Part shown: piece after piece, positions 6,953-31,353 of the stretch | Position numbering within the stretch: position 1 is the first letter of the stretch | How the letters are laid out: every line of letters starts with the position of its first letter | From: Candidatus Cloacimonadales bacterium | GTDB taxonomy: Bacteria; Cloacimonadota; Cloacimonadia; Cloacimonadales; JAFGVF01 | DNA: 64,000 bases | Assembly (NCBI GenBank): GCA_963667035.1 | Contig: OY762964.1 | Span: 572,664-636,663, forward strand | Direction: 5' to 3' | The notes under the pieces: model-generated | Told to the model about the DNA's origin: nothing | Seen by the model: the letters and a program-made list of their open reading frames with translations, nothing else | Databases searched by the model: none | Translations under genes and position numbers: made by a program

Positions 6953-7948
6953 TTAATATCTAAAGAGAACACTACCCCAAGTTAATCCGGCTCCGAAGGA
7001 AACAATGTGAATTACATCTCCACGTCTTATCTTTCCCTCTTCAATTGCTTCGGAAATTGCAATAGGAATAGTAGCGGATGAAGTATTTGCATATTTTTCA
7101 ATATTAACAATTACTTTATCCTTATTTATCTTCATTTTATTACCTAGACTTTCAATAATTCTCATGTTTGCCTGATGAGGAACTAACCAATCAAGATCAT
7201 TGAAGTCCATGTTATTGCGTTTTATTATATTCTCACTCGTTGAATACATTGATTTAACAGCCAATTTGAAAACTCGATTACCTTGCATTGAAACGGTATG
7301 CTTGTTTTCTCTTACAGTTTCTTCAGTTGCAGGTAATCTTGAACCACCGGCTTCCTGAACCAATAACTCATGATAGTTACCATCAGCAAGAATCTCAGAA
7401 TCGATAATCTTGGAAGTTTCATTACTCTGAGCTCTGGAGATAATGGCTGCACCGGCTCCGTCACCGAAAAGAACACAAGTGTTTCTATCTTTCCAGTTTA
7501 GGATTTTTGAGAGTATTTCTACTCCAATAACTAGTACATTCTGCTTTGTTCCGTTCTCCACGAATTGTCTGGCAATATCGGATGCATAGATGAATCCGGG
7601 GCATCCTGCCGAGATATCAAAAGCCGGTATCCCTTTCAACCCGAGATTGTTCTGTACAAAACAAGCTGTTGATGGGAAGGCATGATCGGGAGATATTGTT
7701 CCACAGATTATTAAATCTATGTCCTTATACTTAATATTTGAGTTTTCGATACAGTTTTGGGCTGCTTTTGTTGCCAAGTCACTTGCTGCCTGCTCAGGAG
7801 CTGCAATTCTCCTTTCAAACATTCCTGTTCTAGTTCTGATCCATTCGTCACTTGTATCAACTATTTTCTCAAGATCGTAGTTGTTTAAGATTTTCTCAGG
7901 AACATAACGTCCGAACGCAGTATACTTTGCTTTGTATTTCATATTCAC
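6953..7948 (-). CDS. fabH: 3-oxoacyl-ACP synthase III
   Basis: KAS III family motifs, including the active-site Cys in AFDISAGCPGFIYA and a C-terminal GFGAGLTWG. Confidence 0.85.
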   Translation of the reverse strand: MNMKYKAKYTAFGRYVPEKILNNYDLEKIVDTSDEWIRTRTGMFERRIAAPEQAASDLATKAAQNCIENSNIKYKDIDLIICGTISPDHAFPSTACFVQNNLGLKGIPAFDISAGCPGFIYASDIARQFVENGTKQNVLVIGVEILSKILNWKDRNTCVLFGDGAGAAIISRAQSNETSKIIDSEILADGNYHELLVQEAGGSRLPATEETVRENKHTVSMQGNRVFKLAVKSMYSTSENIIKRNNMDFNDLDWLVPHQANMRIIESLGNKMKINKDKVIVNIEKYANTSSATIPIAISEAIEEGKIRRGDVIHIVSFGAGLTWGSVLFRY

Positions 7949-8940
7949 TGCCTTTCAAAATAATCGATAGAATGCTTAACGAAACCTGAATTTACTATTC
8001 TGGTTGCATATTTTATCGCATTCTTAATTGACAAGGCGTTTGAACTGCCATGTCCGATTATCGTTATACCTCTTACTCCAACAAGGAGTGAACCACCGTA
8101 TTCCGTGTGGTCTAATCGTTTTTTTAGATATGCATAAGCGGGGAAAGAAAGCAATGCACCTATCTTTGCTATCCAGTCTTTAGCAATCTGTTCTTTTATT
8201 ATTTTGAGTACAGATAACACTGAACCTTCAAATGTCTTTAGCATTACATTTCCAACAAATCCATCACATACAATTACATCCGTTCCACCCTGAAGCAGAT
8301 ATTTACCTTCTATGTTTCCATGAAAGTTTATCCTTTCCTCATTGGATAGTAGCTCGTATGTCCGCTTAACAAGATCATTTCCTTTCTCAGCTTCTTCTCC
8401 TATATTGAGTAATGATACTCGAGGAGATTTAGTGTGAAAGAAATACTGACTATATAAGGTTCCTAAAAGGGCAAATTGCTGAAGATGCTCAGGGGCACAA
8501 TCAACGTTAGCTCCCACATCCAGTAAAATGACAGGGTTTTCAGTAGTTGGAAATACAACTGCTAAAGCAGGGCGCATAATGTTTTTTATACGCTTATATG
8601 CGAATAGAGATGCACTCATAACCGCACCGGTATTGCCGGCACTTACAGCTGCATCTGCAATCCCTTCTTTATGTAATTCTACTGTACGAACCAGAGAAGA
8701 GTCTTTTTTCTTTCTGACAGAGCTTGCCGCTTTGTCACTCATCTCGATTCGCTCTGATGCCGGAATTATCTCAATTCTGGACTTATCATAAAAATACTTT
8801 TCCAACTCTTTGGCTAATACTTCTTCCTTACCAACTAGGAATATCTTATCACAAATATTCTCCCTAATAGCAAGAACCGCACCCTCCACTTCAGGATAAG
8901 GTGCGTGATCACTGCCAAATGCGTCTAAAGCTATTTGCAT
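7945..8940 (-). CDS. plsX: phosphate acyltransferase PlsX
   Basis: MQIALDAFGSDHAP N-terminus typical of PlsX. It sits in the conserved rpmF-plsX-fabH order. Confidence 0.85.
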   Translation of the reverse strand: MQIALDAFGSDHAPYPEVEGAVLAIRENICDKIFLVGKEEVLAKELEKYFYDKSRIEIIPASERIEMSDKAASSVRKKKDSSLVRTVELHKEGIADAAVSAGNTGAVMSASLFAYKRIKNIMRPALAVVFPTTENPVILLDVGANVDCAPEHLQQFALLGTLYSQYFFHTKSPRVSLLNIGEEAEKGNDLVKRTYELLSNEERINFHGNIEGKYLLQGGTDVIVCDGFVGNVMLKTFEGSVLSVLKIIKEQIAKDWIAKIGALLSFPAYAYLKKRLDHTEYGGSLLVGVRGITIIGHGSSNALSIKNAIKYATRIVNSGFVKHSIDYFERQ

Positions 8941-10660: not shown

Positions 10661-11577
10661 TGTTTATTCCTCACTGAAAGTCTTTTTTTTATCATAACTG
10701 TTTTTTTTACAATAGTCTCTATATTTATACCCATTATGACTAATGCGATTCCCAAGAATTGACCAATATATATAGTCTCATGAAACATAATAAAAGCCAG
10801 TATTGAAACTATTACAGGTTTTAGAAAAAAGAGTATAGCTCCGGTAGTAGTTGGAACACTCTTCAATCCTTCAAAATATGAAAGATAAGCTAAACCAGAG
10901 ACAAAAATCCCTAAGTAAACTATTGTAATTACATTAAACCATGTAATCTCAAATGTAACATCTACTTTCGAGATTAATGCTATCATACCTAAAACTATGC
11001 TACCTATTATAAATGAGATAGTATTGGTAACGACATTACCGTGTTTTTTTACATTCTTTTTTGAGAGTATAGTATATAGTCCAAATGAGAAAGAAGCTAC
11101 ACAACCGAATATAATCCCTAATAAAGGATTAAGAGCTTTACTTTCCTGGAAAGACTCATATCCAATAATTGTAATTACACCAATAATTCCAACTATGATT
11201 CCAATTATTTTAACAAATGATAAACTCTCTTTCAATATGTATTTAGCTAGTATTGCTACAAACACAGGATTTGCACTTATAAGAATTGCACTTAATGATG
11301 CCTCTCCATAGTAAACAGCTAATTGTAAAGATAGCATTGATATGACAATATTGATTATGCCAAGAAGAGATAAGGAGAACATATCTTTAAAACTGAGCGT
11401 TGCTTCCTTGTTTATTATTTTTTTTAAACAAAGAGGTAGCATTATGATACCTCCAAGCATAAATCTATAAATAGTAATTCCAATTGGAGAAATGCTATCT
11501 CCCAAAAGTTTGCTTGTTAACTCCAATGTAGAGAATAGGAACACAGCAACTAGAATAAATAAGTAACTCATTAACAA
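10657..11577 (-). CDS. EamA/DMT-family transporter
   Basis: About 10 predicted TM helices in two repeated halves, typical of the drug/metabolite transporter superfamily. Confidence 0.55.
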   Translation of the reverse strand: MLMSYLFILVAVFLFSTLELTSKLLGDSISPIGITIYRFMLGGIIMLPLCLKKIINKEATLSFKDMFSLSLLGIINIVISMLSLQLAVYYGEASLSAILISANPVFVAILAKYILKESLSFVKIIGIIVGIIGVITIIGYESFQESKALNPLLGIIFGCVASFSFGLYTILSKKNVKKHGNVVTNTISFIIGSIVLGMIALISKVDVTFEITWFNVITIVYLGIFVSGLAYLSYFEGLKSVPTTTGAILFFLKPVIVSILAFIMFHETIYIGQFLGIALVIMGINIETIVKKTVMIKKRLSVRNKQ

Positions 11578-13589
11578 TTCTCCAACTGATTTATAATCTT
11601 GTATATATCTGAAGGTAACTCAGCTATCATGCACCCTGCATTCTTGAGTATTTCTTTTTTATACTGTACTGTCGATTTCTCACTATTAATGATTGCACCT
11701 GCATGTCCCATTTTGGAACCTTTAGGAGCAGAATCTCCTGCAAAAAAAGCAATTAAAGGTTTTGTTTTGTTAATTGATTTTATCAGATTTGCTAATTTTT
11801 CTTCCTCCTCTCCACCACCTATCTCTCCTATATAGACTATATAATCACTCTCTTTAGAATTTAATAGGAATGTAACTGTATCAATCACAGAGGTTCCTGA
11901 TATTGGATCACCACCTAATCCGATAGCAGTTGAAACTCCTTTAGTATTATTACTGATCTCATTTGCAATTTCATAGAGTAGTGTTCCGCTTTTTGACATT
12001 ATTGCAACATTTCCCTTTTTAAGAATCTTACCAGGAATGATACCTAGATTCGCTTCATTTACTCGTATTATCCCAGGACAATTAGGTCCTATAATCCTAG
12101 CACCTTTTTCATACGCATAATGAACCATTTCCATAGTATCATGAATAGGCACATGTTCTGTAATTATAACTATCAAATTTACTCCAGCGTCAATTGCTTC
12201 AATAGTTGCGGATTTTACATGAGGAGCGGGAACAAACAATACAGTTGCATCAACATGAGTGTTTGCAGTAACTTCTTTTACTGAGTTATAAATTGTAACA
12301 CCATGTATTGTTTCCCCTCCACGACCAGGAGTAACACCAGCTACTATCTTAGTACCATATTCTAGCATTTTTTTTGCATGATATGAGCCATATTTCCCTG
12401 AAATGCCTTGCACAATTACTTTAGAATCTCTGGATACAAAGAATTGAGAATCATGCTTTTGCGATATTTCTACTGCCTTGCGGGCTGCTCTTTCCATACT
12501 ATTATAAGCAAAGATACCATTTTCTTTAAGCATTGAAATTGCTATATCAGAATTGTTTCCCATCATTCTTATAATCATCGGTAGTGAGTTTATATTCGTA
12601 GAGCGATACTCTATAATTGCTTCAGCAATCTTGTCACAAAATGTTATTCCTCCAAAAATATTTACGAAGATACAATTGATTTTACTATTAGAGTTTAACA
12701 GTTTAAGAGCGTTTAAAGTAATTTCTTTAGTTGCTCCACCACCTAAATCCAAGAAATTAGCAGGTGTACCGTTAAATTTTTTTATCATATCCATTGAAGC
12801 CATTACTATACCTGCTCCACATCCCATTATCCCAATACTTCCGTCTAGTTCAAGATAATGTGAACCGAAATGATTCGAACCATCAAAATACAATTGATTC
12901 ATTGAAAGATTCTCTAGTTCGGCAAAAAGTTCTTCATGTCTAAACTTTGCTGATTCATCTATATCTATAACACAATCAAGGCAAATTGGTGTATCTTCTT
13001 TATCAAATACAAATGGATTGATTTCTAAAAGAGTGGCATCGATAGATAAGAATACTTGCTTTATCAATACTGCAAACTCAATAAATTTGTTTAACTTTTT
13101 TTTATTGGGGAAGAAACAAAATGTGTTATCCATTAATTGTCTTTTAAACACTTCATTTTTTATACTTACTTGTAAAGTAATTATGCTTTCAGGATTATCT
13201 GATGCTACTTTTTCAATATCAACACCACCAAAAGGAGAGAAAATTGCAGTTAAGCTCTTCGAAGCTCTGTCAATTAACATACAAAAATAATACTCTTGCT
13301 CTATATTAATAGACTCTTCAACTAATATGCCTACAGATCTTTCACCTTTAAACTCTTGGTTTATAATCCAATTACACATTTCTTCAAACTTTGATGTATC
13401 ATCTAGTAATTGAACTAGATTTGCTTTACCTCTTCCTCCTGCTAGAACTTGACTCTTGAGTACTACTGGGAAACTAAAAGGGATTTTTGAATAATCAAAC
13501 AGCTCCCCTTCTTTAAAGAAGTGATTTCGAGGAATAGTTAAATTGTGCTCTTCTAGAATTTTTTTTGATTGGAATTCATGAATCTTCAT
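11571..13589 (-). CDS. succinyl-CoA synthetase-like fused beta-alpha subunits (acyl-CoA synthetase, NDP-forming)
   Basis: N-terminus MKIHEFQSKKILEEHNL matches the SucC ATP-grasp start (MNLHEYQAK...). The middle and C-terminus match SucD (VIVQGISGKYGSYH..., GPNCPGIIRVNEANLGIIPG, phosphohistidine loop MGHAGAII). Both parts lie in one 672-aa ORF. Confidence 0.7.
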   Translation of the reverse strand: MKIHEFQSKKILEEHNLTIPRNHFFKEGELFDYSKIPFSFPVVLKSQVLAGGRGKANLVQLLDDTSKFEEMCNWIINQEFKGERSVGILVEESINIEQEYYFCMLIDRASKSLTAIFSPFGGVDIEKVASDNPESIITLQVSIKNEVFKRQLMDNTFCFFPNKKKLNKFIEFAVLIKQVFLSIDATLLEINPFVFDKEDTPICLDCVIDIDESAKFRHEELFAELENLSMNQLYFDGSNHFGSHYLELDGSIGIMGCGAGIVMASMDMIKKFNGTPANFLDLGGGATKEITLNALKLLNSNSKINCIFVNIFGGITFCDKIAEAIIEYRSTNINSLPMIIRMMGNNSDIAISMLKENGIFAYNSMERAARKAVEISQKHDSQFFVSRDSKVIVQGISGKYGSYHAKKMLEYGTKIVAGVTPGRGGETIHGVTIYNSVKEVTANTHVDATVLFVPAPHVKSATIEAIDAGVNLIVIITEHVPIHDTMEMVHYAYEKGARIIGPNCPGIIRVNEANLGIIPGKILKKGNVAIMSKSGTLLYEIANEISNNTKGVSTAIGLGGDPISGTSVIDTVTFLLNSKESDYIVYIGEIGGGEEEEKLANLIKSINKTKPLIAFFAGDSAPKGSKMGHAGAIINSEKSTVQYKKEILKNAGCMIAELPSDIYKIINQLENC

Positions 13590-13595
13590 TATTAT

Positions 13596-13614
13596 CTCCT
13601 TAATTTCATATTAA
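13596..13614. promoter_or_regulatory. 7-bp inverted repeat (CCTTAAT-N5-ATTAAGG) overlapping the RBS and start of the sucCD-like gene
   Basis: Perfect inverted repeat read from the sequence. Its function is unknown. Confidence 0.2.
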
Positions 13615-14467
13615 GGAGGGTTAGAGTAACCTATGTGAATAGTAATAGAGAAGTATTACCCCTTATCCACAAGCGTCATACACTTTCCCTCCGAAAGTAA
13701 TTCCGTACAGATTTAAATCTGTATGATACGGCATGTCTCCTGACTTGAAGTTTACCTCCGAGCTCCCTTCCCATCAGTTTAATGACAGTGGTATGAACTC
13801 TTTGTTCCTTCTTACAGTAGCGGGGGCTGTTCTCGATTTTCACGAGATTCCATCTTAGCTCTTCATTAGAGAACCAGTATCTTGTTTAATGATTATTTGC
13901 TTCAAAATGAGTCAAGAAAATCTTACTGCTTTCTTCAATGTTTGCTCCATTAGTACAGGTAAGTTCCCATATTTCATTAATATACATTTCTTTGTAATAT
14001 GTGCTCACATATTACCAGATACGCAAGGATCCTGCTCGCTATAAGACATGCCGGTAAAATGCTAGCGTACCCCGGTTTGTAGTGCAAGTGCCCTCACTTG
14101 CACATAGCTCGAAGAGCTATATTTTTTGCATACTTTGTCAGCACAGCAATTCAGGGGAGTCGCAGTACATCATACGAGTTTGCGAGTACAACGCAAAGCG
14201 ATTACACCATGTTCCGATTGGAGTCGAACTCCCACCGGTCGTTTGGACTTGAGCTATAGACTATTACCTGTAGAACATCCTTTTATATATATTAGCTCAC
14301 AAAATCCTCATTTTAGTCACAACATCCCCTTTTTTTTACATTTTGCATCTTTCATTTAGCATTTTCTCTTAATTTCTAATTCATATTCCTCTCTCTGCTC
14401 TAAGCAGTAACAATTGCTTTTAAATCAATTCTAACTTATTAATAAATTAGTAATTTCTTGATAATTA

Positions 14468-14522
14468 ACCCAAGGATTACCCAAGGATTACCCAAGTGTT
14501 TCACAAGTATTTCACAGGAATT
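14468..14522. repeat. five phased 11-bp tandem repeats (ACCCAAGGATT x2 plus three degenerate copies)
   Basis: The units are acccaaggatt / acccaaggatt / acccaagtgtt / tcacaagtatt / tcacaggaatt, about 110-165 bp upstream of the 14635 start. The helical-turn periodicity suggests iterated protein-binding sites. Confidence 0.6.
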
Positions 14523-14577
14523 ACTGCAGGGAGATGAAGGAGAAGTAAAGAAGAAGTAAGCAGGTCGTGCATATTTC

Positions 14578-14604
14578 TTGACATACATGTTTCAGGGGTA
14601 TACT
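14578..14604 (+). promoter_or_regulatory. candidate sigma70-like promoter (TTGACA-N15-TATACT)
   Basis: Hexamers read directly from the sequence, about 30 nt upstream of the ATG at 14635. The spacer is shorter than optimal. Confidence 0.3.
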
Positions 14605-23493: not shown

Positions 23494-23499
23494 AGATTA

Positions 23500-23529
23500 A
23501 AAGTGACTCGGAATTGAGTCACTTTTTTT
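23500..23529 (+). terminator. rho-independent terminator
   Basis: AAAAGTGACTC-ggaatt-GAGTCACTTTTTTT perfect hairpin plus a U tract, immediately after the MATE gene. Confidence 0.8.
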
Positions 23530-23703
23530 ATGAATGGGCTATTGATGCATAAATAGAACTCTTCTCACAATAGAAACATATTCAAATCATTATTCATGCA
23601 AGTAAGATAACAAAGAATAATAGTTAAAAGTAAAAACTTTAATTGACTTAATTAGTAATCTTTCATATCTTTGATATTAATCAATGGAGGATAACTATTT
23701 ATT

Positions 23704-24954
23704 ATGTATTTACTACAAAAGATTACTGGAAACAAGTTTAACCGAATTAATTCAATTATTGATTCATATAATTATACTCAGAATAATTTCATCAATCTTA
23801 TTGCCTGTGTATGTTATATTTTTCCAGAAGTTATAGAAGCGATGAAATTCCCATTATCCACTTTGCCAACAGAAGGATTAATGAATAATAGATATTTCCC
23901 AACATATGATTATATGGAAAGAATTGAAGTATTATCACAAGAGCAAGCCTTGAAATTGTTTAAAATTAGTTCTGGTTATAAAGTAAACATACAACCACAT
24001 TCAGGAACTCAAGCTAACCATATTATTTACAATGCAATATTAAAGGATGGAGATAGGGTTATTAGCATGTCTCCTTTTGATGGCGGACATATTTCACACA
24101 CTAAATTAGCTGGAAGAAAATTAGAGTTACTTCATTTCTATTTGAATGACGACTACAAACTGGATTACAATCTGATTGAGAATATGATTATGGAGTTTAA
24201 ACCAACTCTGTTAATTGCAGGAGTTAGTTCTTATCCAAGAGAAATTGACTTCCAACTTCTATCACAGATATCACACAAGCATAATTGCTATATTCTTGCT
24301 GATATAAGTCATACTGCTATATTTGTTGCAGGAGAAGTACATAAAAACGTTTTCCCATATGTAGATTTTGCTACTTTCACTATGGAAAAAAACTTGAGAG
24401 GTCCTCATGGAGGAGTTATCATTTATAAAGAGAAATTTCACAAGGCAATATCATATTCAACATTCCCTATATCCCAAGGAGGTCCTATACAAAATATGCT
24501 TTTTGGTAAACTTGTTGCATTTGAATTACTAAATCAAACAAATGTTAAAGAATATGCTAATAGATTGGTTTCAAATGCCAGGAGTGTATCTAAAACATTA
24601 TTAGAGAGAGGTTGCGATGTTGTAACTTCAGGGACAGATAGTCACATAATCTTAGTTAATACTAAATCTCATGGACTTCTAGGTAATAAAGCTGAGAATA
24701 TCCTAGAAAAGAACAGAATTTTGGTAAATCGAAATCTGATTCCAAAAGATAAAGAGAAACCTTTAATTACTTCTGGGATTAGAATAGGGAGTACTACAAT
24801 TACTAATCTTAATTATGAGTTTGTAGACGTCATAAATTTATCCAATACTTTAGCTGATGTATTATTGAATAGAAAAACTGATGAACATAATGTAAGATAT
24901 CTATTGAACAAATACCATAGTAGTATCAATATCTCCAGTGAGGAGACAAAATAA
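23704..24954 (+). CDS. divergent serine hydroxymethyltransferase-fold PLP-dependent enzyme (SHMT/threonine-transaldolase-like paralog)
   Basis: Colinear with SHMT: NLIACVCY (vs LIASENYT), VNIQPHSGTQAN (vs ANVQPHSGSQAN), GGHISHT (vs GGHLTHG), DISHTA (vs DMAHVAG), and TMEKNLRGPHGG (vs TTHKTLRGPRGG, PLP-Lys retained). Several SHMT-invariant residues are substituted. Confidence 0.7.
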   Translation: MYLLQKITGNKFNRINSIIDSYNYTQNNFINLIACVCYIFPEVIEAMKFPLSTLPTEGLMNNRYFPTYDYMERIEVLSQEQALKLFKISSGYKVNIQPHSGTQANHIIYNAILKDGDRVISMSPFDGGHISHTKLAGRKLELLHFYLNDDYKLDYNLIENMIMEFKPTLLIAGVSSYPREIDFQLLSQISHKHNCYILADISHTAIFVAGEVHKNVFPYVDFATFTMEKNLRGPHGGVIIYKEKFHKAISYSTFPISQGGPIQNMLFGKLVAFELLNQTNVKEYANRLVSNARSVSKTLLERGCDVVTSGTDSHIILVNTKSHGLLGNKAENILEKNRILVNRNLIPKDKEKPLITSGIRIGSTTITNLNYEFVDVINLSNTLADVLLNRKTDEHNVRYLLNKYHSSINISSEETK

Positions 24955-27277
24955 ATAGAAATTGTATTAATCCATCATTTATAGGTAATTTAATAACTAG
25001 CTCATTACCTGTTTCTTTTCTTGCATTAAGTCTTGTTAGGAAATAGCTAGAGATTTGAATTGTTTTGTTAGTTACTAAACAACTTTCAATTGATACTAGA
25101 TTGTAACCTATACAAAACTGCATCCATGGATCTTGAATTTTAGTAACACATTCATACATTTTTTCTATTTCACTCTTAGCCATTAGAATATCCAATTCTT
25201 TTAAGGCAATATTAATAATAATCTGATTATTCGACAGCATTAATTGATCTAATATTAGTGACTTAGGATAAGAATCAATCGCTCTTTCGATGTATTCTTT
25301 TGCGATATCATATTTTCTATTTATCGTATATAAAGCAGCCATATTACACAATGGTTCAAAAATTTCATTAGAGTTTATTTGATTAAACAACTCTATGGAA
25401 TTTGATAAATTTCTCTCAGCTTCAGGATAACTGTGGTTCCATAAATAAACTAATCCTAAATTGTTTAGCGCAGTAGCTCTACCAAACAGAAAATTGTTTT
25501 GTCTGAAATAATTGTAAACACTTTTCAGATTTATAATAGCTTTCTCATAACTAAAATAATGTGCTGAGTTTCTTAAAATTACGAAATATGACTCATCATT
25601 GGTTGGTGGAAGATTATAGATTATTTCTTTTGCTTCTTTATCGTAGCAAAGGTGTTGGTAAATGTTTAACCTATACAAGATTGTTTCCAATTTGTTGTTA
25701 TCTAATTGAGTGCATACTTTTAACGCTTCTTTAAAGTGATAGGATTGAGTTAGGTACTTAACCTTATATAGCAAATAATCTGAAGTTTTTGCATAAGTTG
25801 TATCTTCAATAATTCTAATTGCTTCAATTCCTAAATAAATCTCAGAAGTTTTTTGAAATGAGTCAAGTAACTGAGTGACCGAGATATCTGGCAAAATGGT
25901 TATTATTTCTTTATACGCTTTATAAATAAGGATGATGTATTGATACATATTATTATTATATTGAATGTCGATTAGTCGTATAACGTAATCAAGTTTGGTC
26001 TTATATTGATTTATTGAAAAAATACCAACAAAGCAGTGGAGTATATAAGAATAATCATTAGGAGCTATGTTAGTATTAAACAGCTCCTCCATTGCAATCA
26101 AGATATCATCTCTAATCTGGAGAAACTCTTCATCAGTTAAACCTTTCTTTGTAGAAGTAATAATCTTCTCGTGAGCTGGTTTAAGAAGTTGTCCATTAGA
26201 ACTATTTAGTACTATGTATCCAATCTTTACCAAATCTCTAATGCTATCCTCAATAACATCATTTTCGTTTCCATTCAGAATAGACTTAAGTAACTCTATA
26301 ATGTATTTCTTTTTCATTCCTGCAGGAAACATTGATGAGATTGTTACCAAATATTTTTTTATATAAGGAAAATAGCATATTGTTTCTGTGATATCATAAA
26401 TACTTTTTCTTGTAGTTGGCTCTTTATAAGCATTTAAGAACAATTCCATTTCTTTTAAGTTACCTAATGTTTTTTCATAACACCTATTAGCAACGAACAT
26501 AGCTTCTTCATGATTGCAGTGTATAACTTTTTTTACTAATTCTATGATCTCATCAATGTTAAATTGAGAAAGGGATATGAGTAAACTACTTTTAGTAAAA
26601 GTAGAAGCAAGATTAAAATTATCAATATCTAAAATTGTTCTGTTAATAAATATAAAATTTATCTCTTTTTTTAATCGCGAAATATGAGACTCAAAAAGAG
26701 TTTTAGTATATTTAGGTAGAAATTGATAGTTATCTATGGCAATATAGGTTTTAGTTTTATTTGCTATATAATCTAAGTATTTATATAAGGTAATCATTAT
26801 ATCTGGTGTAGGATCATGAGAATTCTTTTTAAATAAATTTCTCGGGAAAAGCTCTTTTAAAGGTTTTCCAAATGAAGGTATTAATTCTAAAGTTGATGAG
26901 ATAGTTTTAACCAGTTTATTTATAGCAGACTTCTTTAATCCTGAGGATTTTAAAAAGGCAGGGAATGTACATCCTTTTAAAACATTTAGTGGATAGTTAA
27001 ATTCAAACGAATGCTCATTCCAAGCACAATAGATTAAATATTCAGCAAAAAGAGTAATAGTAAAATCATCATTACTCAAATCTATGTAAATCATAGTAAC
27101 ATCTTTTTGAATTGTATATATTGAATGCATTAACTCCTTTACTAGAAAAGTTTTTCCTGTACCAGAATTACCTTCTACGATAAGGAGTTTAGGTTGTTTC
27201 TTTTCTATATTCTTGAAAAAAGACATAGCAGAATCAATTAAGCATTGTCTCACAACGAATGGAAATCTAGAACCCAT
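24926..27277 (-). CDS. STAND/AAA+-type P-loop NTPase with a C-terminal TPR-like helical repeat domain
   Basis: Walker A EGNSGTGKTFLVKEL at residues about 33-47 and Walker B TYIAIDNYQF, followed by about 450 aa of Y/N/L-rich helical repeats. No HTH or N-terminal effector domain visible. It overlaps the SHMT-like gene 3' end convergently by 29 nt. Confidence 0.6.
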   Translation of the reverse strand: MGSRFPFVVRQCLIDSAMSFFKNIEKKQPKLLIVEGNSGTGKTFLVKELMHSIYTIQKDVTMIYIDLSNDDFTITLFAEYLIYCAWNEHSFEFNYPLNVLKGCTFPAFLKSSGLKKSAINKLVKTISSTLELIPSFGKPLKELFPRNLFKKNSHDPTPDIMITLYKYLDYIANKTKTYIAIDNYQFLPKYTKTLFESHISRLKKEINFIFINRTILDIDNFNLASTFTKSSLLISLSQFNIDEIIELVKKVIHCNHEEAMFVANRCYEKTLGNLKEMELFLNAYKEPTTRKSIYDITETICYFPYIKKYLVTISSMFPAGMKKKYIIELLKSILNGNENDVIEDSIRDLVKIGYIVLNSSNGQLLKPAHEKIITSTKKGLTDEEFLQIRDDILIAMEELFNTNIAPNDYSYILHCFVGIFSINQYKTKLDYVIRLIDIQYNNNMYQYIILIYKAYKEIITILPDISVTQLLDSFQKTSEIYLGIEAIRIIEDTTYAKTSDYLLYKVKYLTQSYHFKEALKVCTQLDNNKLETILYRLNIYQHLCYDKEAKEIIYNLPPTNDESYFVILRNSAHYFSYEKAIINLKSVYNYFRQNNFLFGRATALNNLGLVYLWNHSYPEAERNLSNSIELFNQINSNEIFEPLCNMAALYTINRKYDIAKEYIERAIDSYPKSLILDQLMLSNNQIIINIALKELDILMAKSEIEKMYECVTKIQDPWMQFCIGYNLVSIESCLVTNKTIQISSYFLTRLNARKETGNELVIKLPINDGLIQFLFILSPHWRY

Positions 27278-27293
27278 AATAAATAGTTATCAT

Positions 27294-28256
27294 TTATTCA
27301 TTCAACACCTCCTTACTCATTGAAAATTTCCGTCTTGGATGTTTTGAGTTTAGGATTTTCTTTTGGCTCTTTCTATTTACATGAGTATATATTTGGGTTG
27401 TATTGATTGAGCTATGTCCCAGAAAGTGTTGAATATACTTTATATCTACACCCTCTTCCAATAGAAGAGTAGCGAAGGTATGTCGGAAGGTATGAGGAGT
27501 GATTTTTTTATCTATTTTCGCTAATTTAACATATCTGTTTATCATAAATCGTACTGATTGAGCTGAAATGTTATTGTCTAATCTGTTAAGAAAAAAGTAG
27601 GTTCTATTAGGGTGATTTTTAGCAATTGCTATATCAAAGTTCCTAAGAGATTGAATAATTTCTTTACTACAGATATGTATGATTCTTTCTTTTGCTCCTT
27701 TCCCATAAACAATAATATGATTACTTTTTAGATCAATTTGATTGTGCTTGAGTGAACAAAGCTCCGAAATTCTTATTCCTGTTCCAAACAATAACTCTAG
27801 AATCGCAATATCCCTACAACATGAAGTGTAAGTATAGTGACTGGAGTTTATCATAGAGTTCTTAAAATTGTATGCAGAAGTAAGTATTCTTTTTACTTCG
27901 CTTAATGTTAGCACATTAGGTAGAGTTTTAGGAACCTTAAGTTTGATGCGTAGTTTCCTAAAAGGGTTTACAGCTATAATATCTTCAAATTCAAGATAGT
28001 TTAAGAATGATTTTAAAGACGCTATTTTCCTTTTAGCTGTTTTAACTTTGTATGAAGACACTAAAAATTCCACATACTGTCTGATTAATGCCTTGTCTAA
28101 ATTAGATATATCCGATTGAGAATCACCTGTCTTTTCATTAATAAAGTTCATGAATTGAGTAAAATCCGATTTATATGCCGATAAGGTTTTCTTACTTAGG
28201 TTCTTCTCATAAGTGCAATGAAAAGTAAACTGCTCCAAACATTCTTTAACTGTCAT
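27294..28256 (-). CDS. tyrosine site-specific recombinase (XerC/XerD/integrase family)
   Basis: C-terminal catalytic motifs HTFRHTFAT…LGHSSINTTQIYTHV (R…HxxR…Y) and an N-terminal SAM-like core-binding domain. Lies 17 nt upstream of, and co-oriented with, the STAND NTPase. Confidence 0.85.
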   Translation of the reverse strand: MTVKECLEQFTFHCTYEKNLSKKTLSAYKSDFTQFMNFINEKTGDSQSDISNLDKALIRQYVEFLVSSYKVKTAKRKIASLKSFLNYLEFEDIIAVNPFRKLRIKLKVPKTLPNVLTLSEVKRILTSAYNFKNSMINSSHYTYTSCCRDIAILELLFGTGIRISELCSLKHNQIDLKSNHIIVYGKGAKERIIHICSKEIIQSLRNFDIAIAKNHPNRTYFFLNRLDNNISAQSVRFMINRYVKLAKIDKKITPHTFRHTFATLLLEEGVDIKYIQHFLGHSSINTTQIYTHVNRKSQKKILNSKHPRRKFSMSKEVLNE

Positions 28257-28461
28257 TTAAACTCCCCAATTTAAATGTAGAACAACTTAGGAATATAGAA
28301 TATCATGTCTATAGTGAATTTGGAAAAGAGTAATCAATAGTTCCATGACTAACTATCAACTTTCATAATCTAATCAGTATGGTATCAGTTATGTTTCTCA
28401 ATAATCTGATTGACTAAACACGAAGGTCAGAAATATTCTCTGAGAATAAGGAGAGTATATT

Positions 28462-31353
28462 ATGAGACTAAAGATAGTTTTTTCGATATTGTTACTGGTA
28501 TTGCTGTCCATATTGATAGCCAGACCTCATTTTGAGGAACCTACACCTACATATGAAACGGAACAATACTTTAAAAGTTATATTAGAGCTGATTCATTGC
28601 ATGGTTTTGATGTTGAGAAATATGAGATTTATCTATCCATTGATGATCAGGCACAATATATAAATGGAAATGTAATTGCAACGGTAACAGCAGAAGAGAA
28701 TCTTCAGTCGATAGAATGGGATCTTTGTGGGCTAACTGCAACAGCAGTTGAAGTTAATGGAATAATGCAGAATAATTTTTCACAAAATGATACTCATGTA
28801 ATAATTCCATTAGCAGGAATATCCAATGGTGATCAGTTCTCAACAACAGTTTACTATTCAGGTAATCCATCTTTGAGCCCTTCTCCTTATGGATGCGGGA
28901 TGTTCTTCAGAACCGGCTCTGTCTTCACTATTTCCGACCCGGATGCGTCACGATATTGGTGGCCATGCTATGATCATCCATGGGATAAAGCTTTAGTTGA
29001 TTTGCATGTAACCGTTAGAGACGATTGGGTCGCAGCATGTAACGGATTAAGAGATTCTATAGAGGATAATGGGGACGGTACGAGAACCCATCACTGGTTA
29101 GGCTCAAACCCTATGACTACATATCTTGCTTGTATAACAGCCGGTAATTATCAGGAACTTCCTTTGCAATACTACAACGATATACCAATTCAAGATTTTG
29201 TTTTACCTAATCAGGTAGCAAATGCAACTGAAGATTTATCTAGATTGCCTGATATGATGAGTGCTTTCTCCCAGATGTTTGGAGAGTATCCCTTTGAAAA
29301 ATACGGACAGACAACTGTAAGTATGGGAGTATATGGTGCTATGGAACATCAAACTATGACTACTCTCAATAGTTACATGATAACAGGAACACATCTTTAT
29401 GATACTACTTATGCTCATGAACTTGCTCATCAATGGTTTGGTAATTGCCTAAGCGTGCTTACTTTTAAAGATATATGGTTATCAGAGGGATTTGCTACAT
29501 ACTCAGAAGCTCTTTGGACTGAATATGATCAGGGATACGAAGCAATGTGCGAGTACTTTCAAGATAACATATCGGGTTATTATCTATCCTATGCAAATAG
29601 TCATGGACCTCAGACAACCTACGATCCAGCCTTCAATGCTATATTTACTCCGGTATCTTACGAGAAACCCGGCTCTGTTCTTCATATGCTAAGAGCAAGA
29701 GTGGGGAATGAGATGTTTTTCGATATTCTCCAATCCTGGTTTCAGGAGCACCATAATGGTAATGTGATTACTTCTGAGTTTCAAGCAAAATGCGAAGAGT
29801 TAACGGGAGAGGACTTTAGTCAGTTCTTTGACCAATGGATATATGGTTCCGGAATCCCGGAATTAGAATATAGTGTCTTTTACAACTATAATCTAGCCAT
29901 ACCTAGATATAAAGTATATGCTAAATCCATATCAAATACTGATACGGAATTTGTTCTTGATATTCCTTTCCATTACAATAGTCCTACTTTAGCAGATAGT
30001 TCGTTAGTACAAGCCGGACCGGAAGTAACAGAATCCATAGTACTTCTTAACTATATTCCTACCGGCTACAGCATAGACCCTAATAATTGGATGCTCTTGA
30101 GAGGAATGACAGAGAAAAGGGTAGAAATTGTTGATGCTTACGCCGGAGTCAGCAGTGCAAGGGTTTCTTGGTCTCCTTACTGGACAGATGTTCAACCTGT
30201 TGGTTACTATATCTATAGAGCTACATTTGACGGTCCGTTTATACTCCAAACAATAGAACCTATCACAGGAACCGAATGGGTAGACAGTGATTTATCTCCC
30301 GAGACAGAGTATTCTTACTATGTGGTTGCCGTTGATAATCAAGGTTTTGAATCAATGCCGTCTGAGACACGTATTGTTAGGACAATAGATATGCCAATGG
30401 ATCAGGGAATGCTTGTAGTTGATGAAACTAGAGATTTAGGCGGTACAATACTTTCTCCTAATGATCTGCAGGTAGACGATTTTTATAGAACAATATTCGA
30501 AGATATGATTTATACAGAATATGATTATGCTTCTCAAGGTACTATTACTTCTCAGATACTTGGACAGTATTCTACAGTTTTTTGGCATAATGATGATTTT
30601 ACCGAGTTGCTTATTAATGATAATCTAAATGCTTTAGGTAGCTACATTCTTGAAGGAGGAAATCTAATTCTCTCAGGGTTTAAGATTGCCGGACAAATTG
30701 ACCAGGATTTTCTTACTCAATACTTCCCTAACTTAACACCCATTTATGCAAATAATTCAGTGTTTGAATATGCATATAGTAATGAATATCCCAGCTTGAT
30801 AATAGATCAATCAAAGCTCCCTGCAAATTGGAATCAGAACCTCAGAATGACATATAGCTTCCCTAATTATTCCGAAAATGCTATCTATAATGCCGATTAT
30901 TCCGATACAGAGCCAACAGATGGTAATGGAGTTATTATAGCTACTGACACCGGAGGTTCTCTAACGATTAGCGGTATACCTCTATATATGTTTGAGATCG
31001 ACGGTGTGAGGAGTTTTCTTAATCAGTATATTGCTTCTATTGACGAATCAGTGAGTAATAATGAACAACAGCAGGAATTAGGGGTTATTGCTATTAATGC
31101 GTATCCGAATCCATTTAATCCCGAACTGAATATAAAAATAGAAGGTTTGAGTGATGAAAGGGTTGAAGTTTCTATATACAATGTCAAGGGACAGAAAGTA
31201 ATGGCTTTATTCAATGATGTTGTTAAAGGAAGCAAGGAGCTTGTTTGGTCAGGTAGAGATAGCAATAATCATAAAATGGGGTCAGGCATATATTTTGTGA
31301 AAGTCAAAACAGATAGTGTAGCAACTACTAGAAAGATAATATTGCTTAAATAG
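28462..31353 (+). CDS. secreted M1-family (aminopeptidase N-like) zinc metallopeptidase with a T9SS C-terminal sorting domain
   Basis: Signal peptide, gluzincin motif YAHELAHQWFGN … LSEGFATY (HEXXH-X18-E), Ig/FN3-like middle region, and a C-terminal INAYPNPFNPELNIKIE…KIILLK Por-secretion CTD. Confidence 0.75.
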   Translation: MRLKIVFSILLLVLLSILIARPHFEEPTPTYETEQYFKSYIRADSLHGFDVEKYEIYLSIDDQAQYINGNVIATVTAEENLQSIEWDLCGLTATAVEVNGIMQNNFSQNDTHVIIPLAGISNGDQFSTTVYYSGNPSLSPSPYGCGMFFRTGSVFTISDPDASRYWWPCYDHPWDKALVDLHVTVRDDWVAACNGLRDSIEDNGDGTRTHHWLGSNPMTTYLACITAGNYQELPLQYYNDIPIQDFVLPNQVANATEDLSRLPDMMSAFSQMFGEYPFEKYGQTTVSMGVYGAMEHQTMTTLNSYMITGTHLYDTTYAHELAHQWFGNCLSVLTFKDIWLSEGFATYSEALWTEYDQGYEAMCEYFQDNISGYYLSYANSHGPQTTYDPAFNAIFTPVSYEKPGSVLHMLRARVGNEMFFDILQSWFQEHHNGNVITSEFQAKCEELTGEDFSQFFDQWIYGSGIPELEYSVFYNYNLAIPRYKVYAKSISNTDTEFVLDIPFHYNSPTLADSSLVQAGPEVTESIVLLNYIPTGYSIDPNNWMLLRGMTEKRVEIVDAYAGVSSARVSWSPYWTDVQPVGYYIYRATFDGPFILQTIEPITGTEWVDSDLSPETEYSYYVVAVDNQGFESMPSETRIVRTIDMPMDQGMLVVDETRDLGGTILSPNDLQVDDFYRTIFEDMIYTEYDYASQGTITSQILGQYSTVFWHNDDFTELLINDNLNALGSYILEGGNLILSGFKIAGQIDQDFLTQYFPNLTPIYANNSVFEYAYSNEYPSLIIDQSKLPANWNQNLRMTYSFPNYSENAIYNADYSDTEPTDGNGVIIATDTGGSLTISGIPLYMFEIDGVRSFLNQYIASIDESVSNNEQQQELGVIAINAYPNPFNPELNIKIEGLSDERVEVSIYNVKGQKVMALFNDVVKGSKELVWSGRDSNNHKMGSGIYFVKVKTDSVATTRKIILLK

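What the first reader, a model, noticed from the sequence alone, without database searches (positions are those of the whole stretch)
23704..24954. SHMT paralog with substitutions at normally invariant catalytic positions
Colinear alignment with E. coli SHMT shows the PLP-lysine context changed from T-H-K-T-LRGPRGG to M-E-K-N-LRGPHGG. The LIASENYT segment (containing catalytic Glu57) is replaced by LIACVCYIF. AEGYPGKRYYGG becomes TEGLMNNRYFPT. The PLP lysine, Asp-x-x-His (DISHTA) and the HSGTQAN loop are retained. SHMT-fold enzymes with altered active sites include L-threonine transaldolases of antibiotic pathways (ObiH/LipK type) and alpha-methylserine aldolases. Loss of the Glu57 equivalent suggests this is not a standard THF-dependent SHMT.
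Basis: partly seen in the sequence, partly recalled or inferred. Interest (0 to 1): 0.6.

Follow-up and report, generated by a model that had tools for sequence, protein, structure and literature searches.

The report
Flip-flop cassette: SHMT-like enzyme versus STAND
The odd serine hydroxymethyltransferase look-alike is real, and it is one half of a small DNA segment that a neighbouring recombinase can flip, so that a fixed outside promoter faces either this enzyme or an immune-receptor-like ATPase encoded on the opposite strand, a pairing I found in no paper of the searchable library.

Summary
The ORF 23704-24954 is an intact SHMT-fold protein and the listed substitutions are real. One residue assignment is wrong. 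E. coli Glu57 lies in YAEGYPG, not LIASENYT, and it is retained, as are the PLP lysine, Asp200, His126, His203, Arg363 and Asn347. What is changed, in 117-119 of 119 homologues, is Ser35 to Cys/Ser, Tyr55 to Pro, Tyr65 to Phe, Gly66 to Pro, His228 to Asp/Glu and Arg235 to Gln/His. The family is a separate clade from GlyA and shows no specific threonine-transaldolase affinity.

The context matters more. The gene is always convergent with, and overlaps at its 3' end, a STAND NTPase-TPR gene (24926-27277, minus strand). The pair is bracketed by perfect inverted repeats (core GATAACTATTTATTATG, 23690-23706 and 27275-27291) that include both start codons. A Xer-like tyrosine recombinase gene (27294-28256) sits beside it. 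The same layout occurs in Bacteroidota, Bacillota, Anaeroplasmataceae and Actinomycetota. Five pairs of related loci carry the cassette in opposite orientations between the same flanks.

Best reading: a phase-variable switch that connects an outside promoter to either the SHMT-like gene or the STAND gene, probably within a phage-defence or conflict system. The enzyme's reaction is unknown.

The parts
23499..23526 (.). Hairpin terminator after the upstream MatE gene. It insulates the cassette from read-through on the left.
   Evidence: 11-pair stem; sequence read, with a T-run on the + strand.
23643..23671 (+). Candidate fixed outside promoter (TTGACT-17-TATCTT; it also contains TATCTTTG, which matches the Bacteroidetes-type -7 box TAnnTTTG). 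A GGAGG Shine-Dalgarno at 23686-23690 follows. It reads into the cassette and at present faces the SHMT-like gene.
   Evidence: The same TATCTTTG box lies on the non-recombinase flank of L002. This is consensus matching only and is not proven.
23679..23706 (.). Left inverted repeat. The perfect core GATAACTATTTATTATG lies at 23690-23706 and ends in the ATG of the SHMT-like gene. It has the form ATAA-N7-TTAT, typical of a recombinase core.
   Evidence: The core occurs exactly twice in the 64 kb window, against 0.07 expected.
23704..24954 (+). SHMT-fold paralogue of 416 aa. The PLP lysine is K229. Signature residues are C35, P55, E57, F65, P66, E228, H235 and R360 (which aligns with E. coli R363).
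24926..24954 (.). Tail-to-tail coding overlap of 29 nt. SHMT-like ...INISSEETK* lies opposite STAND ...SPHWRY*. There is no terminator between the two genes.
   Evidence: An overlap of 17-29 nt is conserved in the six loci examined.
24926..27277 (-). STAND NTPase of 783 aa. It has a P-loop (GNSGTGKT), a helical and winged-helix module, a TPR solenoid and an invariant C-terminal WRY. This copy has no N-terminal effector domain.
   Evidence: The top fold match is 6MFV, a STAND-TPR protein.
27275..27302 (.). Right inverted repeat. The core lies at 27275-27291 and contains the ATG of the STAND gene. The stop codon of the recombinase gene (27294-27296) lies inside the arm.
27294..28256 (-). Xer-like tyrosine recombinase of 320 aa that reads into the cassette. 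The catalytic R, K, HxxR, H and Y motifs are readable in the sequence.
   Evidence: Phage_integrase 4.8e-43; XerC/XerD models 244-247 bits, below their cut-offs; 40-50% identical homologues beside the cassette in other phyla.
23501..28500 (.). Low-GC island (0.25-0.34, against 0.35-0.40 in the flanks) that coincides with the three genes.
   Evidence: No flanking direct repeat of 9 nt or more was found.

Best explanation
The ORF encodes a diverged SHMT-fold enzyme that probably still binds PLP. It forms one arm of a 3.6-kb invertible two-gene cassette. The other arm is a STAND NTPase with a TPR sensor, encoded convergently and overlapping the SHMT-like gene at the 3' end.

The cassette is bounded by inverted repeats carrying an ATAA-N7-TTAT core. 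These sit directly on the ribosome-binding sites and start codons of both genes. A dedicated Xer-like tyrosine recombinase is encoded beside it.

Shown: recombination between the repeats flips the whole cassette in related strains.

Inferred:
- In the Bacteroidota, Paenibacillus and Streptococcus types neither gene has room for its own promoter inside the cassette.
- One flank carries a fixed promoter.
- Inversion therefore decides which gene that promoter drives.
- Because there is no terminator between the genes, transcription of the chosen gene continues antisense through the other one and should depress it.
- In this window the outside promoter and Shine-Dalgarno face the SHMT-like gene, and the STAND gene lies behind the recombinase gene.

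More speculative: the pair is a phase-variable conflict or anti-phage module. The STAND protein would be an NLR-like sensor and executioner. The SHMT-like protein would be its obligate antagonist, cofactor supplier or guardee. Its chemistry would use PLP and probably folate, with an amino-acid or reaction specificity different from serine/glycine interconversion.
For: Pairing:
- All 12 SHMT-like loci compared have a convergent STAND homologue. It is homologous over its whole length in 11 of them (28-54% identity) and cut off by the contig end in L047.
- All 16 metagenome loci carrying the family motif DFATFTM[DE]K are consistent with this. Fifteen show the convergent STAND gene, and in the sixteenth (L140) the contig ends inside the SHMT-like gene.
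- All three STAND homologues whose surroundings were examined have the SHMT-like gene convergent with them. Most other STAND homologues lie on cassette-sized contigs of 3.6-4.5 kb.

Inverted repeats:
- Perfect pairs of 17-120 nt bracket the cassette in 11 of 11 loci, and each contains (G/A)ATAA-N7-TTAT.
- The window core occurs exactly twice in 64 kb, against 0.07 expected.

Inversion seen in nature. Five pairs share flanks but carry the cassette reversed:
- L006 and L007.
- L118 and L123.
- Paenibacillus sp. P46E and P. borealis CP009285.
- L132 and L141.
- Streptococcus sp. and the S. salivarius ICDC2 plasmid.
- Assemblies also break at the repeats. L010 is a 4377-nt contig with 120-nt inverted repeats at both ends. 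For each of two common variants, 141 of 223 and 141 of 237 index blocks have a longest contig of 2-5 kb.

Recombinase: a homologous Xer-like gene lies adjacent in most loci, including a divergent Actinomycetota example, L014.

Promoter logic:
- The repeats abut the start codon or RBS in the window, L001, L012, L013 and L128.
- Seven of eight Firmicute cassette types have exactly one flank with a sigma-A-like promoter ending 3-35 nt outside a repeat. The background is 4% of positions. An example is TGaTATAAT in L132.

Conflict-system flavour:
- The STAND fold is confirmed.
- Some cassette STANDs carry an N-terminal PRTase domain matching retron type III-A effector models at 1.8e-48.
- A weaker relative carries a TIR domain.
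- Neighbours include Kiwa, an R-M system, a SIR2/Dsr1-like gene, PezAT and conjugative-transposon genes.
- The STAND gene is frameshifted or split in several loci while the SHMT-like gene stays intact.

Enzyme:
- 10 of 16 PLP-site residues and 4 of 6 folate-site residues are invariant (residue list from PMC7916883).
- The AF2 model has pLDDT 91 and TM 0.9 to bacterial SHMTs.
Against: - No expression data exist, and promoter calls are consensus matches only.
- Some Firmicute cassettes have 130-220 nt inside the repeat on the STAND side, with promoter-like sites there (L006 and L146). In those the STAND gene may be transcribed in both orientations, and only the SHMT-like gene would be switched.
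- Recombinase orientation varies (reading inward or divergent), and one common variant has no adjacent recombinase (L118).
- Inversion of the window's own copy was not observed, because only one assembly exists.
- Neither protein matches a PADLOC model beyond the P-loop, and the window's surroundings are not a defence island.
- An either/or switch between two unrelated proteins fits poorly with the idea that they act together.
Confidence: 0.6

Rival explanations
1. The two proteins work together as a two-component STAND defence system. The SHMT-like protein would be the effector, a guardee or decoy, or the maker of a ligand. Both genes are expressed in either orientation. Inversion only tunes their ratio, or switches the whole system on and off, to limit autoimmunity.
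For: - The pairing is obligate and the two genes diverge in step across phyla.
- The window's STAND protein has no effector domain of its own.
- Both flanks usually have something reading inward. The recombinase gene abuts the repeat with no terminator.
- Internal promoter-like sites exist in some types.
Against: - Where promoters can be read, only one flank carries a strong one.
- Convergent overlapping genes without a terminator favour mutual interference.
- STAND versions with their own PRTase effector still keep the SHMT-like gene, so it is not simply the missing effector.
Confidence: 0.25
2. One reading: a stand-alone biosynthetic SHMT-fold enzyme, such as a threonine transaldolase or an alpha-methylserine aldolase or hydroxymethyltransferase, acting in a secondary-metabolite pathway.
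For: - The active-site loop 53-67, which sets specificity in ObiH-type enzymes (PMC10495429), is remodelled.
- Tyr65, His228 and Ser35 are changed.
Against: - TIGR04506 scores 58.7 bits against a cut-off of 650.
- All 50 listed fold matches are SHMTs.
- The clade is separate from other odd SHMTs such as L068 and L075.
- None of the loci examined shows biosynthetic neighbours. The constant neighbours are a STAND NTPase and a recombinase.
Confidence: 0.05
3. The inverted repeats are the ends or attachment sites of a small recombinase-borne mobile element. The observed inversions would be incidental by-products with no regulatory role.
For: - The trio forms a low-GC island.
- It occurs in different genomic contexts, on a plasmid and next to conjugative-transposon genes.
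Against: - The recombinase gene lies outside the repeat-bounded segment.
- The repeats sit exactly on the start codons or RBS of both genes in several phyla.
- One flank carries a promoter far more often than chance allows.
- Both orientations recur in five lineages.
- No flanking direct repeats were found.
Confidence: 0.07
4. It is simply the organism's housekeeping GlyA with lineage-specific substitutions.
For: - It has the full SHMT fold.
- Glu57, Arg363, Lys229 and Asn347 are retained.
- No other SHMT gene lies in the 64 kb window.
Against: - It scores below the NCBIfam SHMT cut-off, and PGAP names family members only 'aminotransferase class I/II-fold PLP-dependent enzyme'.
- The family is rare and patchy.
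- It is plasmid-borne in S. salivarius.
- It lies in a low-GC island.
- Tyr65 is Phe. From my own knowledge of the literature, the Y65F mutant solved as 1EQB is strongly impaired.
Confidence: 0.03

Closest known systems
Bacterial serine hydroxymethyltransferase GlyA (E. coli 1DFO; B. stearothermophilus 1KKJ)
   Same: - Same fold over the whole length (TM 0.89-0.92, 31-36% identity).
- PLP Lys229, Asp200, His126, His203, Ser175, Thr226, Arg363 and Gly263 are kept.
- Glu57 and the folate contacts Tyr64, Gly125 and Asn347 are kept.
   Different: - Ser35 to Cys, Tyr55 to Pro, Tyr65 to Phe, Gly66 to Pro, His228 to Asp/Glu, Arg235 to Gln/His and Leu121 to Pro are fixed family-wide.
- It scores below the NCBIfam cut-off and forms a separate clade.
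- It is an accessory gene in a flip cassette, not a housekeeping gene.
L-threonine transaldolases (ObiH, LipK, fluorothreonine transaldolase)
   Same: SHMT-derived PLP enzymes in which the loop after residue 55 is remodelled (PMC10495429).
   Different: - No specific sequence affinity (58.7 bits against a 650-bit cut-off).
- ObiH is described with a Tyr55, which here is Pro.
- No biosynthetic gene cluster.
- The folate-site residues are kept.
Whole-gene flip-flop inversion switches (phage Mu G and P1 C segments; Moraxella piv pilin switch; type I R-M hsdS invertons with a Xer-like recombinase such as PsrA, PMC7096588)
   Same: - An invertible segment holds convergent genes.
- Inverted repeats lie at the 5' ends.
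- Expression signals are fixed outside the segment.
- The recombinase gene is immediately adjacent.
- Both orientations occur in populations.
   Different: - The known switches alternate between paralogous variants of one function (tail fibres, pilins, specificity subunits) and usually share a constant 5' coding part.
- Here two unrelated complete genes alternate, an enzyme and a STAND NTPase, and only the RBS and ATG are shared.
- The comparison with Mu, P1 and piv rests on my own knowledge and was not tested here.
Antiviral STAND / NLR-like proteins of bacteria (Avs, bNACHT; PMC13581612)
   Same: The partner protein has the NTPase, helical, winged-helix and TPR sensor architecture. Relatives carry N-terminal PRTase or TIR effector domains.
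   Different: - There is no match to Avs or other PADLOC models beyond the P-loop.
- The window copy has no effector domain.
- It is obligately paired with an SHMT-like gene and placed under DNA-inversion control.
- The 2026 STAND survey contains no occurrence of SHMT, pyridoxal, recombinase or inversion terms.

Membership tests
Canonical SHMT (GlyA, EC 2.1.2.1) | Fold-type I SHMT fold and a Pfam SHMT match | tested here: met
   PF00464 at 1.6e-85. AF2 model with pLDDT 91.4 and TM 0.89-0.92 to solved SHMTs.
Canonical SHMT (GlyA, EC 2.1.2.1) | Score above the curated NCBIfam SHMT cut-off | tested here: not met
   NF000586 scores 323.7 bits against a cut-off of 335.
Canonical SHMT (GlyA, EC 2.1.2.1) | Full set of PLP-site residues (Ser35, Tyr55', Glu57', Tyr65', Ser99, His228, Lys229, Arg235, Arg363 and others; list from PMC7916883) | tested here: not met
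   10 of 16 are kept. Ser35 to Cys, Tyr55 to Pro, Tyr65 to Phe, Ser99 to Thr, His228 to Glu and Arg235 to His are changed, and the changes are fixed in the family.
Canonical SHMT (GlyA, EC 2.1.2.1) | Folate-site residues (Leu121, Gly125, Leu127, Asn347, Glu57', Tyr64') | tested here: inconclusive
   Gly125, Asn347, Glu57 and Tyr64 are kept. Leu127 to Ile is conservative. Leu121 is Pro. Binding was not tested.
Canonical SHMT (GlyA, EC 2.1.2.1) | Clusters with GlyA of other taxa | tested here: not met
   The NJ tree gives a separate monophyletic clade that includes the divergent members L014 and L047.
Canonical SHMT (GlyA, EC 2.1.2.1) | Serine/glycine interconversion activity | not testable with these tools
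   Needs an enzyme assay or glyA complementation.
L-threonine transaldolase (ObiH / LipK / FTase) | Match to the curated model, or nearest structural neighbour | tested here: not met
   TIGR04506 scores 58.7 bits against a cut-off of 650. No transaldolase appears among the top 50 PDB fold matches.
L-threonine transaldolase (ObiH / LipK / FTase) | Biosynthetic gene-cluster context | tested here: not met
   None of the loci examined has such a context.
Recombinase-driven DNA inversion (phase-variation) switch | Inverted repeats bracketing the segment, with a recombinase-type core | tested here: met
   Window repeats at 23679-23706 and 27275-27302, with a 17/17 core found only twice in the window. 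All 11 homologous loci tested have perfect repeats containing ATAA-N7-TTAT.
Recombinase-driven DNA inversion (phase-variation) switch | Site-specific recombinase encoded next to the segment | tested here: met
   The 320-aa tyrosine recombinase at 27294-28256. Homologues are adjacent in most loci but absent beside L118.
Recombinase-driven DNA inversion (phase-variation) switch | Both orientations found between identical flanks | tested here: met
   Five independent pairs among homologues. This was not observable for the window's own strain, which has a single assembly.
Recombinase-driven DNA inversion (phase-variation) switch | Orientation changes expression | tested here: inconclusive
   The repeats abut the start codons, and a one-sided outside promoter is enriched (7 of 16 flanks against a 4% background). 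There are no transcript data.
Antiviral STAND / Avs-like NLR (partner gene) | NTPase, helical and winged-helix module plus a repeat sensor | tested here: met
   The AF2 model has pLDDT 83. Top fold matches are 6MFV (STAND-TPR), MalT, Apaf-1, CED-4 and NRC. Walker A is GNSGTGKT.
Antiviral STAND / Avs-like NLR (partner gene) | Fused effector domain | tested here: not met
   None in the window copy. PRTase-CE is present in the L002 STAND and P0128, and TIR in the weaker relative P0270.
Antiviral STAND / Avs-like NLR (partner gene) | Match to known defence-system models, and protection against phage | tested here: not met
   PADLOC gives only a weak P-loop hit to mad8. Protection cannot be tested here.

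The most novel reading that the evidence does not exclude
A previously undescribed kind of bacterial immune or conflict module. An SHMT-derived PLP/folate enzyme would be the obligate partner of an NLR-like STAND sensor. The two would be wired as mutually exclusive outputs of a recombinase-flipped cassette, so that cells toggle between a 'sensor armed' state and an 'enzyme on, sensor silenced by antisense read-through' state. The enzyme would be a decoy or guardee of one-carbon metabolism, or a folate or amino-acid-directed effector or antidote.
Probability: 0.3. Interest if true: 0.85.

Novelty: new variant of a known kind. Interest (0 to 1): 0.75.

Why it matters
If correct, this adds a new logic to phase variation. 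A single inversion would choose between two unrelated complete genes, rather than between variants of one protein. It would also link a bacterial NLR-like STAND protein to a one-carbon-metabolism enzyme fold, for which I found no precedent in the searchable literature.

The module occurs from Bacteroidota to Bacillota and Actinomycetota, and it is abundant in human-gut metagenomes. It is also present in cultured strains (Paenibacillus borealis DSM 13188; the Streptococcus salivarius ICDC2 megaplasmid), so it can be tested directly.

It also explains why these cassettes assemble as 3.6-4.5 kb orphan contigs.

For enzymology, the family is a natural experiment. The Tyr55/Arg235 pair, Tyr65 and His228 of SHMT are replaced together, while the lysine, Glu57 and most of the folate pocket are kept.

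Tried and rejected
- Threonine-transaldolase or aldolase identity: rejected on model scores, fold neighbours, tree and context.
- Phage origin: no family member in IMG/VR (best 39% identity, canonical-like), and no STAND homologue in the phage collection.
- Known defence system: PADLOC gives nothing for the SHMT-like protein and only a P-loop-level hit for STAND.
- Literature: searches combining SHMT, tyrosine recombinase, invertible, STAND, defence island and PRTase-CE found no description. The programmed-inversion survey (PMC9881135), the eLife conflict-systems paper (PMC7159879) and the 2026 STAND survey (PMC13581612) returned no relevant passage for the terms I searched in them.
- Attachment-site-like direct repeats around the low-GC island: none of 9 nt or more.
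- tRNA integration target: no tRNA in the window.
- The 193-aa extra gene of gut Firmicute cassettes: no Pfam, PADLOC or PHROG match and no similarity to the N-terminal extension of STAND homologue P0141.
- Identifying the source genome through an exact protein look-up: failed.
The count of species with the cassette is therefore a lower bound.
- My second repeat-finding script picked spurious distal repeats for L011 and L129. For L011 the repeat is the valid one.
Full report
**The observation**

The ORF 23704..24954 (+) is intact and encodes 416 aa. It matches Pfam SHMT at 1.6e-85. It scores 323.7 bits against the NCBIfam SHMT model, just under the cut-off of 335. These are LIASENYTSP to LIACVCYIFP, AEGYPGKRYYGG to TEGLMNNRYFPT, and T-H-K-T to M-E-K-N with RGPRGG to RGPHGG.

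One assignment is wrong. The E. coli sequence I used equals PDB 1DFO over 417/417 residues. In that numbering LIASENYT is residues 32-39, and Glu57 is the E of YAEGYPG. That Glu is present in the window protein (TEG).

**A fixed family signature, not decay**

A search of about 5.8 billion proteins returned a family of 404-427-aa full-length proteins, 45-65% identical to the query. Across 119 of them, in E. coli numbering:
- Kept in every sequence: Glu57, Arg63, His126, His129, Ser175, Asp200, His203, Lys229, Asn347 and Arg363.
- Changed consistently: Ser35 to Cys (110) or Ser (9); Tyr55 to Pro (118); Tyr65 to Phe (119); Gly66 to Pro (119); Ser99 to Thr (119); Thr227 to Met (108); His228 to Asp/Glu (117); Arg235 to Gln/His (119).

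I compared these with the published list of E. coli SHMT site residues (PMC7916883). The family keeps 10 of 16 PLP-site residues and 4 of 6 folate-site residues, with a fifth changed conservatively. The residues lost cluster around the PLP phosphate and the substrate carboxylate. They lie on the loop that each subunit contributes to its partner's active site.

From my own knowledge of the literature, not tested here:
- Tyr55 and Arg235 form a cation-pi pair.
- Y65F is strongly impaired (1EQB is that mutant).
- His228 mutants lose reaction specificity.

I therefore expect PLP chemistry, and probably folate binding, with altered specificity and poor canonical activity.

The AF2 model is confident (pLDDT 91.4). 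All 50 of its listed structural neighbours in the PDB are ordinary SHMTs (TM 0.85-0.92). A neighbour-joining tree places the family in its own clade. It is apart from canonical GlyA, from phage SHMTs and from other odd SHMT-like proteins such as L068 and L075. The fluorothreonine-transaldolase model scores 58.7 bits against a cut-off of 650.

**The context**

In every locus I could examine, the SHMT-like gene is convergent with a 718-1074-aa gene whose 3' end overlaps it by 17-36 nt. In the window this is 24926..27277 (-), 783 aa.

This partner is a STAND NTPase:
- Walker A is GNSGTGKT.
- There are weak AAA_16 and nSTAND hits, and TPR repeats.
- The AF2 model (pLDDT 83) shows an NTPase, a helical and winged-helix module and a TPR solenoid.
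- The best PDB match is 6MFV, a STAND protein with a TPR sensor. MalT, Apaf-1, CED-4, plant NRC proteins and ORC/Cdc6 follow.

The partner is homologous over its full length wherever the contig allows (28-54% identity). A profile search of 1.84 billion representatives finds only 112 clusters at E<=1e-30. All three STAND homologues whose surroundings I examined have the SHMT-like gene convergent with them. Most of the others lie on cassette-sized contigs. The pairing therefore looks obligate.

The invariant C-terminal ...SP[NH]WRY* of STAND is encoded opposite the ...INIS tail of the SHMT-like protein.

**The invertible cassette**

The longest inverted repeat in the region has arms at 23679-23706 and 27275-27302. 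Its perfect 17-nt core, GATAACTATTTATTATG, ends in the ATG of each gene. It occurs exactly twice in the 64 kb window, against 0.07 expected.

Immediately beyond the right arm lies a 320-aa Xer-like tyrosine recombinase gene (27294..28256, minus strand). Its stop codon lies inside the repeat.

All 11 homologous loci tested have a perfect repeat pair of 17-120 nt bracketing the two genes. Each pair contains an ATAA-N7-TTAT core. Examples are CCAAATAACTACGAATTATTTGG in Paenibacillus, with the GGAGG ribosome-binding site built into the site, and GATAACTAGGAATTATC in an Actinomycetota MAG.

Five pairs of related loci have the same flanks with the cassette reversed:
- L006 and L007: 99.96% identical over 4.5 kb, with 66-nt repeats.
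- L118 and L123.
- Paenibacillus sp. P46E and P. borealis.
- L132 and L141.
- Streptococcus sp. and the S. salivarius ICDC2 megaplasmid.

Metagenome assemblies break at the repeats. L010 is a 4377-nt contig ending in 120-nt inverted repeats. Most contigs of the two commonest variants fall in the 2-5 kb class. This fits mixed orientations within samples.

**What inversion probably does**

In the window, and in the Prolixibacteraceae, Paenibacillus and Streptococcus types, the repeat abuts the RBS or start codon of both genes. There is no room for internal promoters.

A simple sigma-A score on eight Firmicute cassette types finds exactly one flank per locus, in seven of them, with a strong promoter ending 3-35 nt outside a repeat. 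That is 7 of 16 flanks, against a 4% positional background. The clearest case is TGaTATAAT in L132.

In the window the left flank carries, after the MatE terminator, TTGACT-17-TATCTT and then GGAGG just outside the repeat. TATCTT extends to TATCTTTG, which matches a Bacteroidetes-type -7 box. This promoter currently faces the SHMT-like gene. The STAND gene sits directly behind the recombinase gene and has no Shine-Dalgarno sequence.

No terminator separates the convergent genes. Transcription from the outside promoter should therefore express the near gene and run antisense through the far one. I infer an either/or or ratio-flipping switch.

Three caveats apply:
- Some gut Firmicute cassettes have 130-220 nt and promoter-like sites inside the repeat on the STAND side.
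- Recombinase orientation varies between loci.
- No expression data exist.

**What it is for**

This part is inference. The following point to a conflict or anti-phage role for the STAND partner:
- Some cassette STANDs carry an N-terminal PRTase domain matching retron type III-A effector models at 1.8e-48.
- A weaker relative carries a TIR domain.
- Neighbours include Kiwa plus an R-M system, a SIR2/Dsr1-like gene, PezAT and conjugative-transposon genes.
- The trio forms a low-GC island in the window.
- The STAND gene is split or truncated in several loci while the SHMT-like gene stays intact.

Against this, neither protein matches known defence models, and the window's surroundings are ordinary housekeeping genes.

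The role of the SHMT-like protein remains open. It could be an antagonist expressed in the 'off' state, a cofactor or ligand maker, a guardee or decoy, or an effector. The strict conservation of its PLP-site and folate-site residues argues that it is an enzyme rather than a dead scaffold.

**Novelty**

Full-text searches found no description of this pairing or switch. Targeted term searches in a survey of programmed inversions, the conflict-systems paper and the 2026 STAND survey found none either. PGAP annotates the genes only as 'tetratricopeptide repeat protein', 'aminotransferase class I/II-fold PLP-dependent enzyme' and 'tyrosine-type recombinase'.

Inversion switches, STAND immune proteins and SHMT paralogues are each known. 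Their combination is new: two unrelated complete genes as alternative outputs of one flip. I therefore rate it a new variant of a known kind, with fairly high interest.

Noticed in passing
window 13713-13894 (-): A cobalamin riboswitch (Rfam RF00174, 107.6 bits) lies upstream of a 672-aa ORF (11571-13589, minus strand). That ORF is a fused succinyl-CoA-ligase-like protein with ATP-grasp_2, CoA_binding and Ligase_CoA domains.
   Followed up: partly
window about 13600-14600: Gene orientation and GC skew both switch sign here. Genes lie on the minus strand before about 13.6 kb and on the plus strand after 14.6 kb, and cumulative skew reaches its minimum near 14 kb. I did not check for DnaA boxes.
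   Followed up: no
window 28462-31353 (+): An M1-family peptidase of 963 aa carries a C-terminal type IX secretion sorting domain (Por_Secre_tail, 2.7e-11). This points to an FCB-group (Bacteroidota-like) host. The closest cassette homologue is in a Prolixibacteraceae MAG.
   Followed up: partly
L006 13585-14166 (-), also L007, L008, L010 and L138: Gut Firmicute versions of the cassette carry an extra 193-aa gene upstream of STAND, inside the invertible segment. It has no Pfam, PADLOC or PHROG match. In L005 it is split into two ORFs of 89 and 112 aa.
   Followed up: partly
L126 9226-11561; L125 9226-10413; L135 523-2737; L141 2805-5113: The STAND gene is split or truncated in several metagenomic copies, while the adjacent SHMT-like gene stays full length. 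This may reflect selection against a costly gene, or assembly error.
   Followed up: no
L089-L117 (IMG/VR contigs): 29 viral contigs, many of 100-260 kb, encode SHMT homologues 29-39% identical to the query. The three I included in the tree (L089, L090 and L107) carry the canonical signature SYEYGHKRR. Large phages therefore carry ordinary-looking SHMTs.
   Followed up: no
L068 (Micromonospora sp.) and L075 (Mesorhizobium sp.), match at 7001-8125: Two other non-canonical SHMT-like proteins have different substitutions (positions 55/65/228 are Thr/His/Asn and Thr/His/Thr). They sit on long branches within the canonical half of the tree. They could be aldolase or transaldolase-type enzymes and are unrelated to the cassette family.
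   Followed up: no
literature (PMC7563484): In soybean, resistance to cyst nematode needs a variant SHMT (GmSHMT08, Rhg4) that interacts with alpha-SNAP. From my own knowledge, alpha-SNAP is an all-helical TPR-like protein. This is an eukaryotic case of an SHMT variant working with a helical-repeat partner in immunity, and the resemblance may be coincidental.
   Followed up: no
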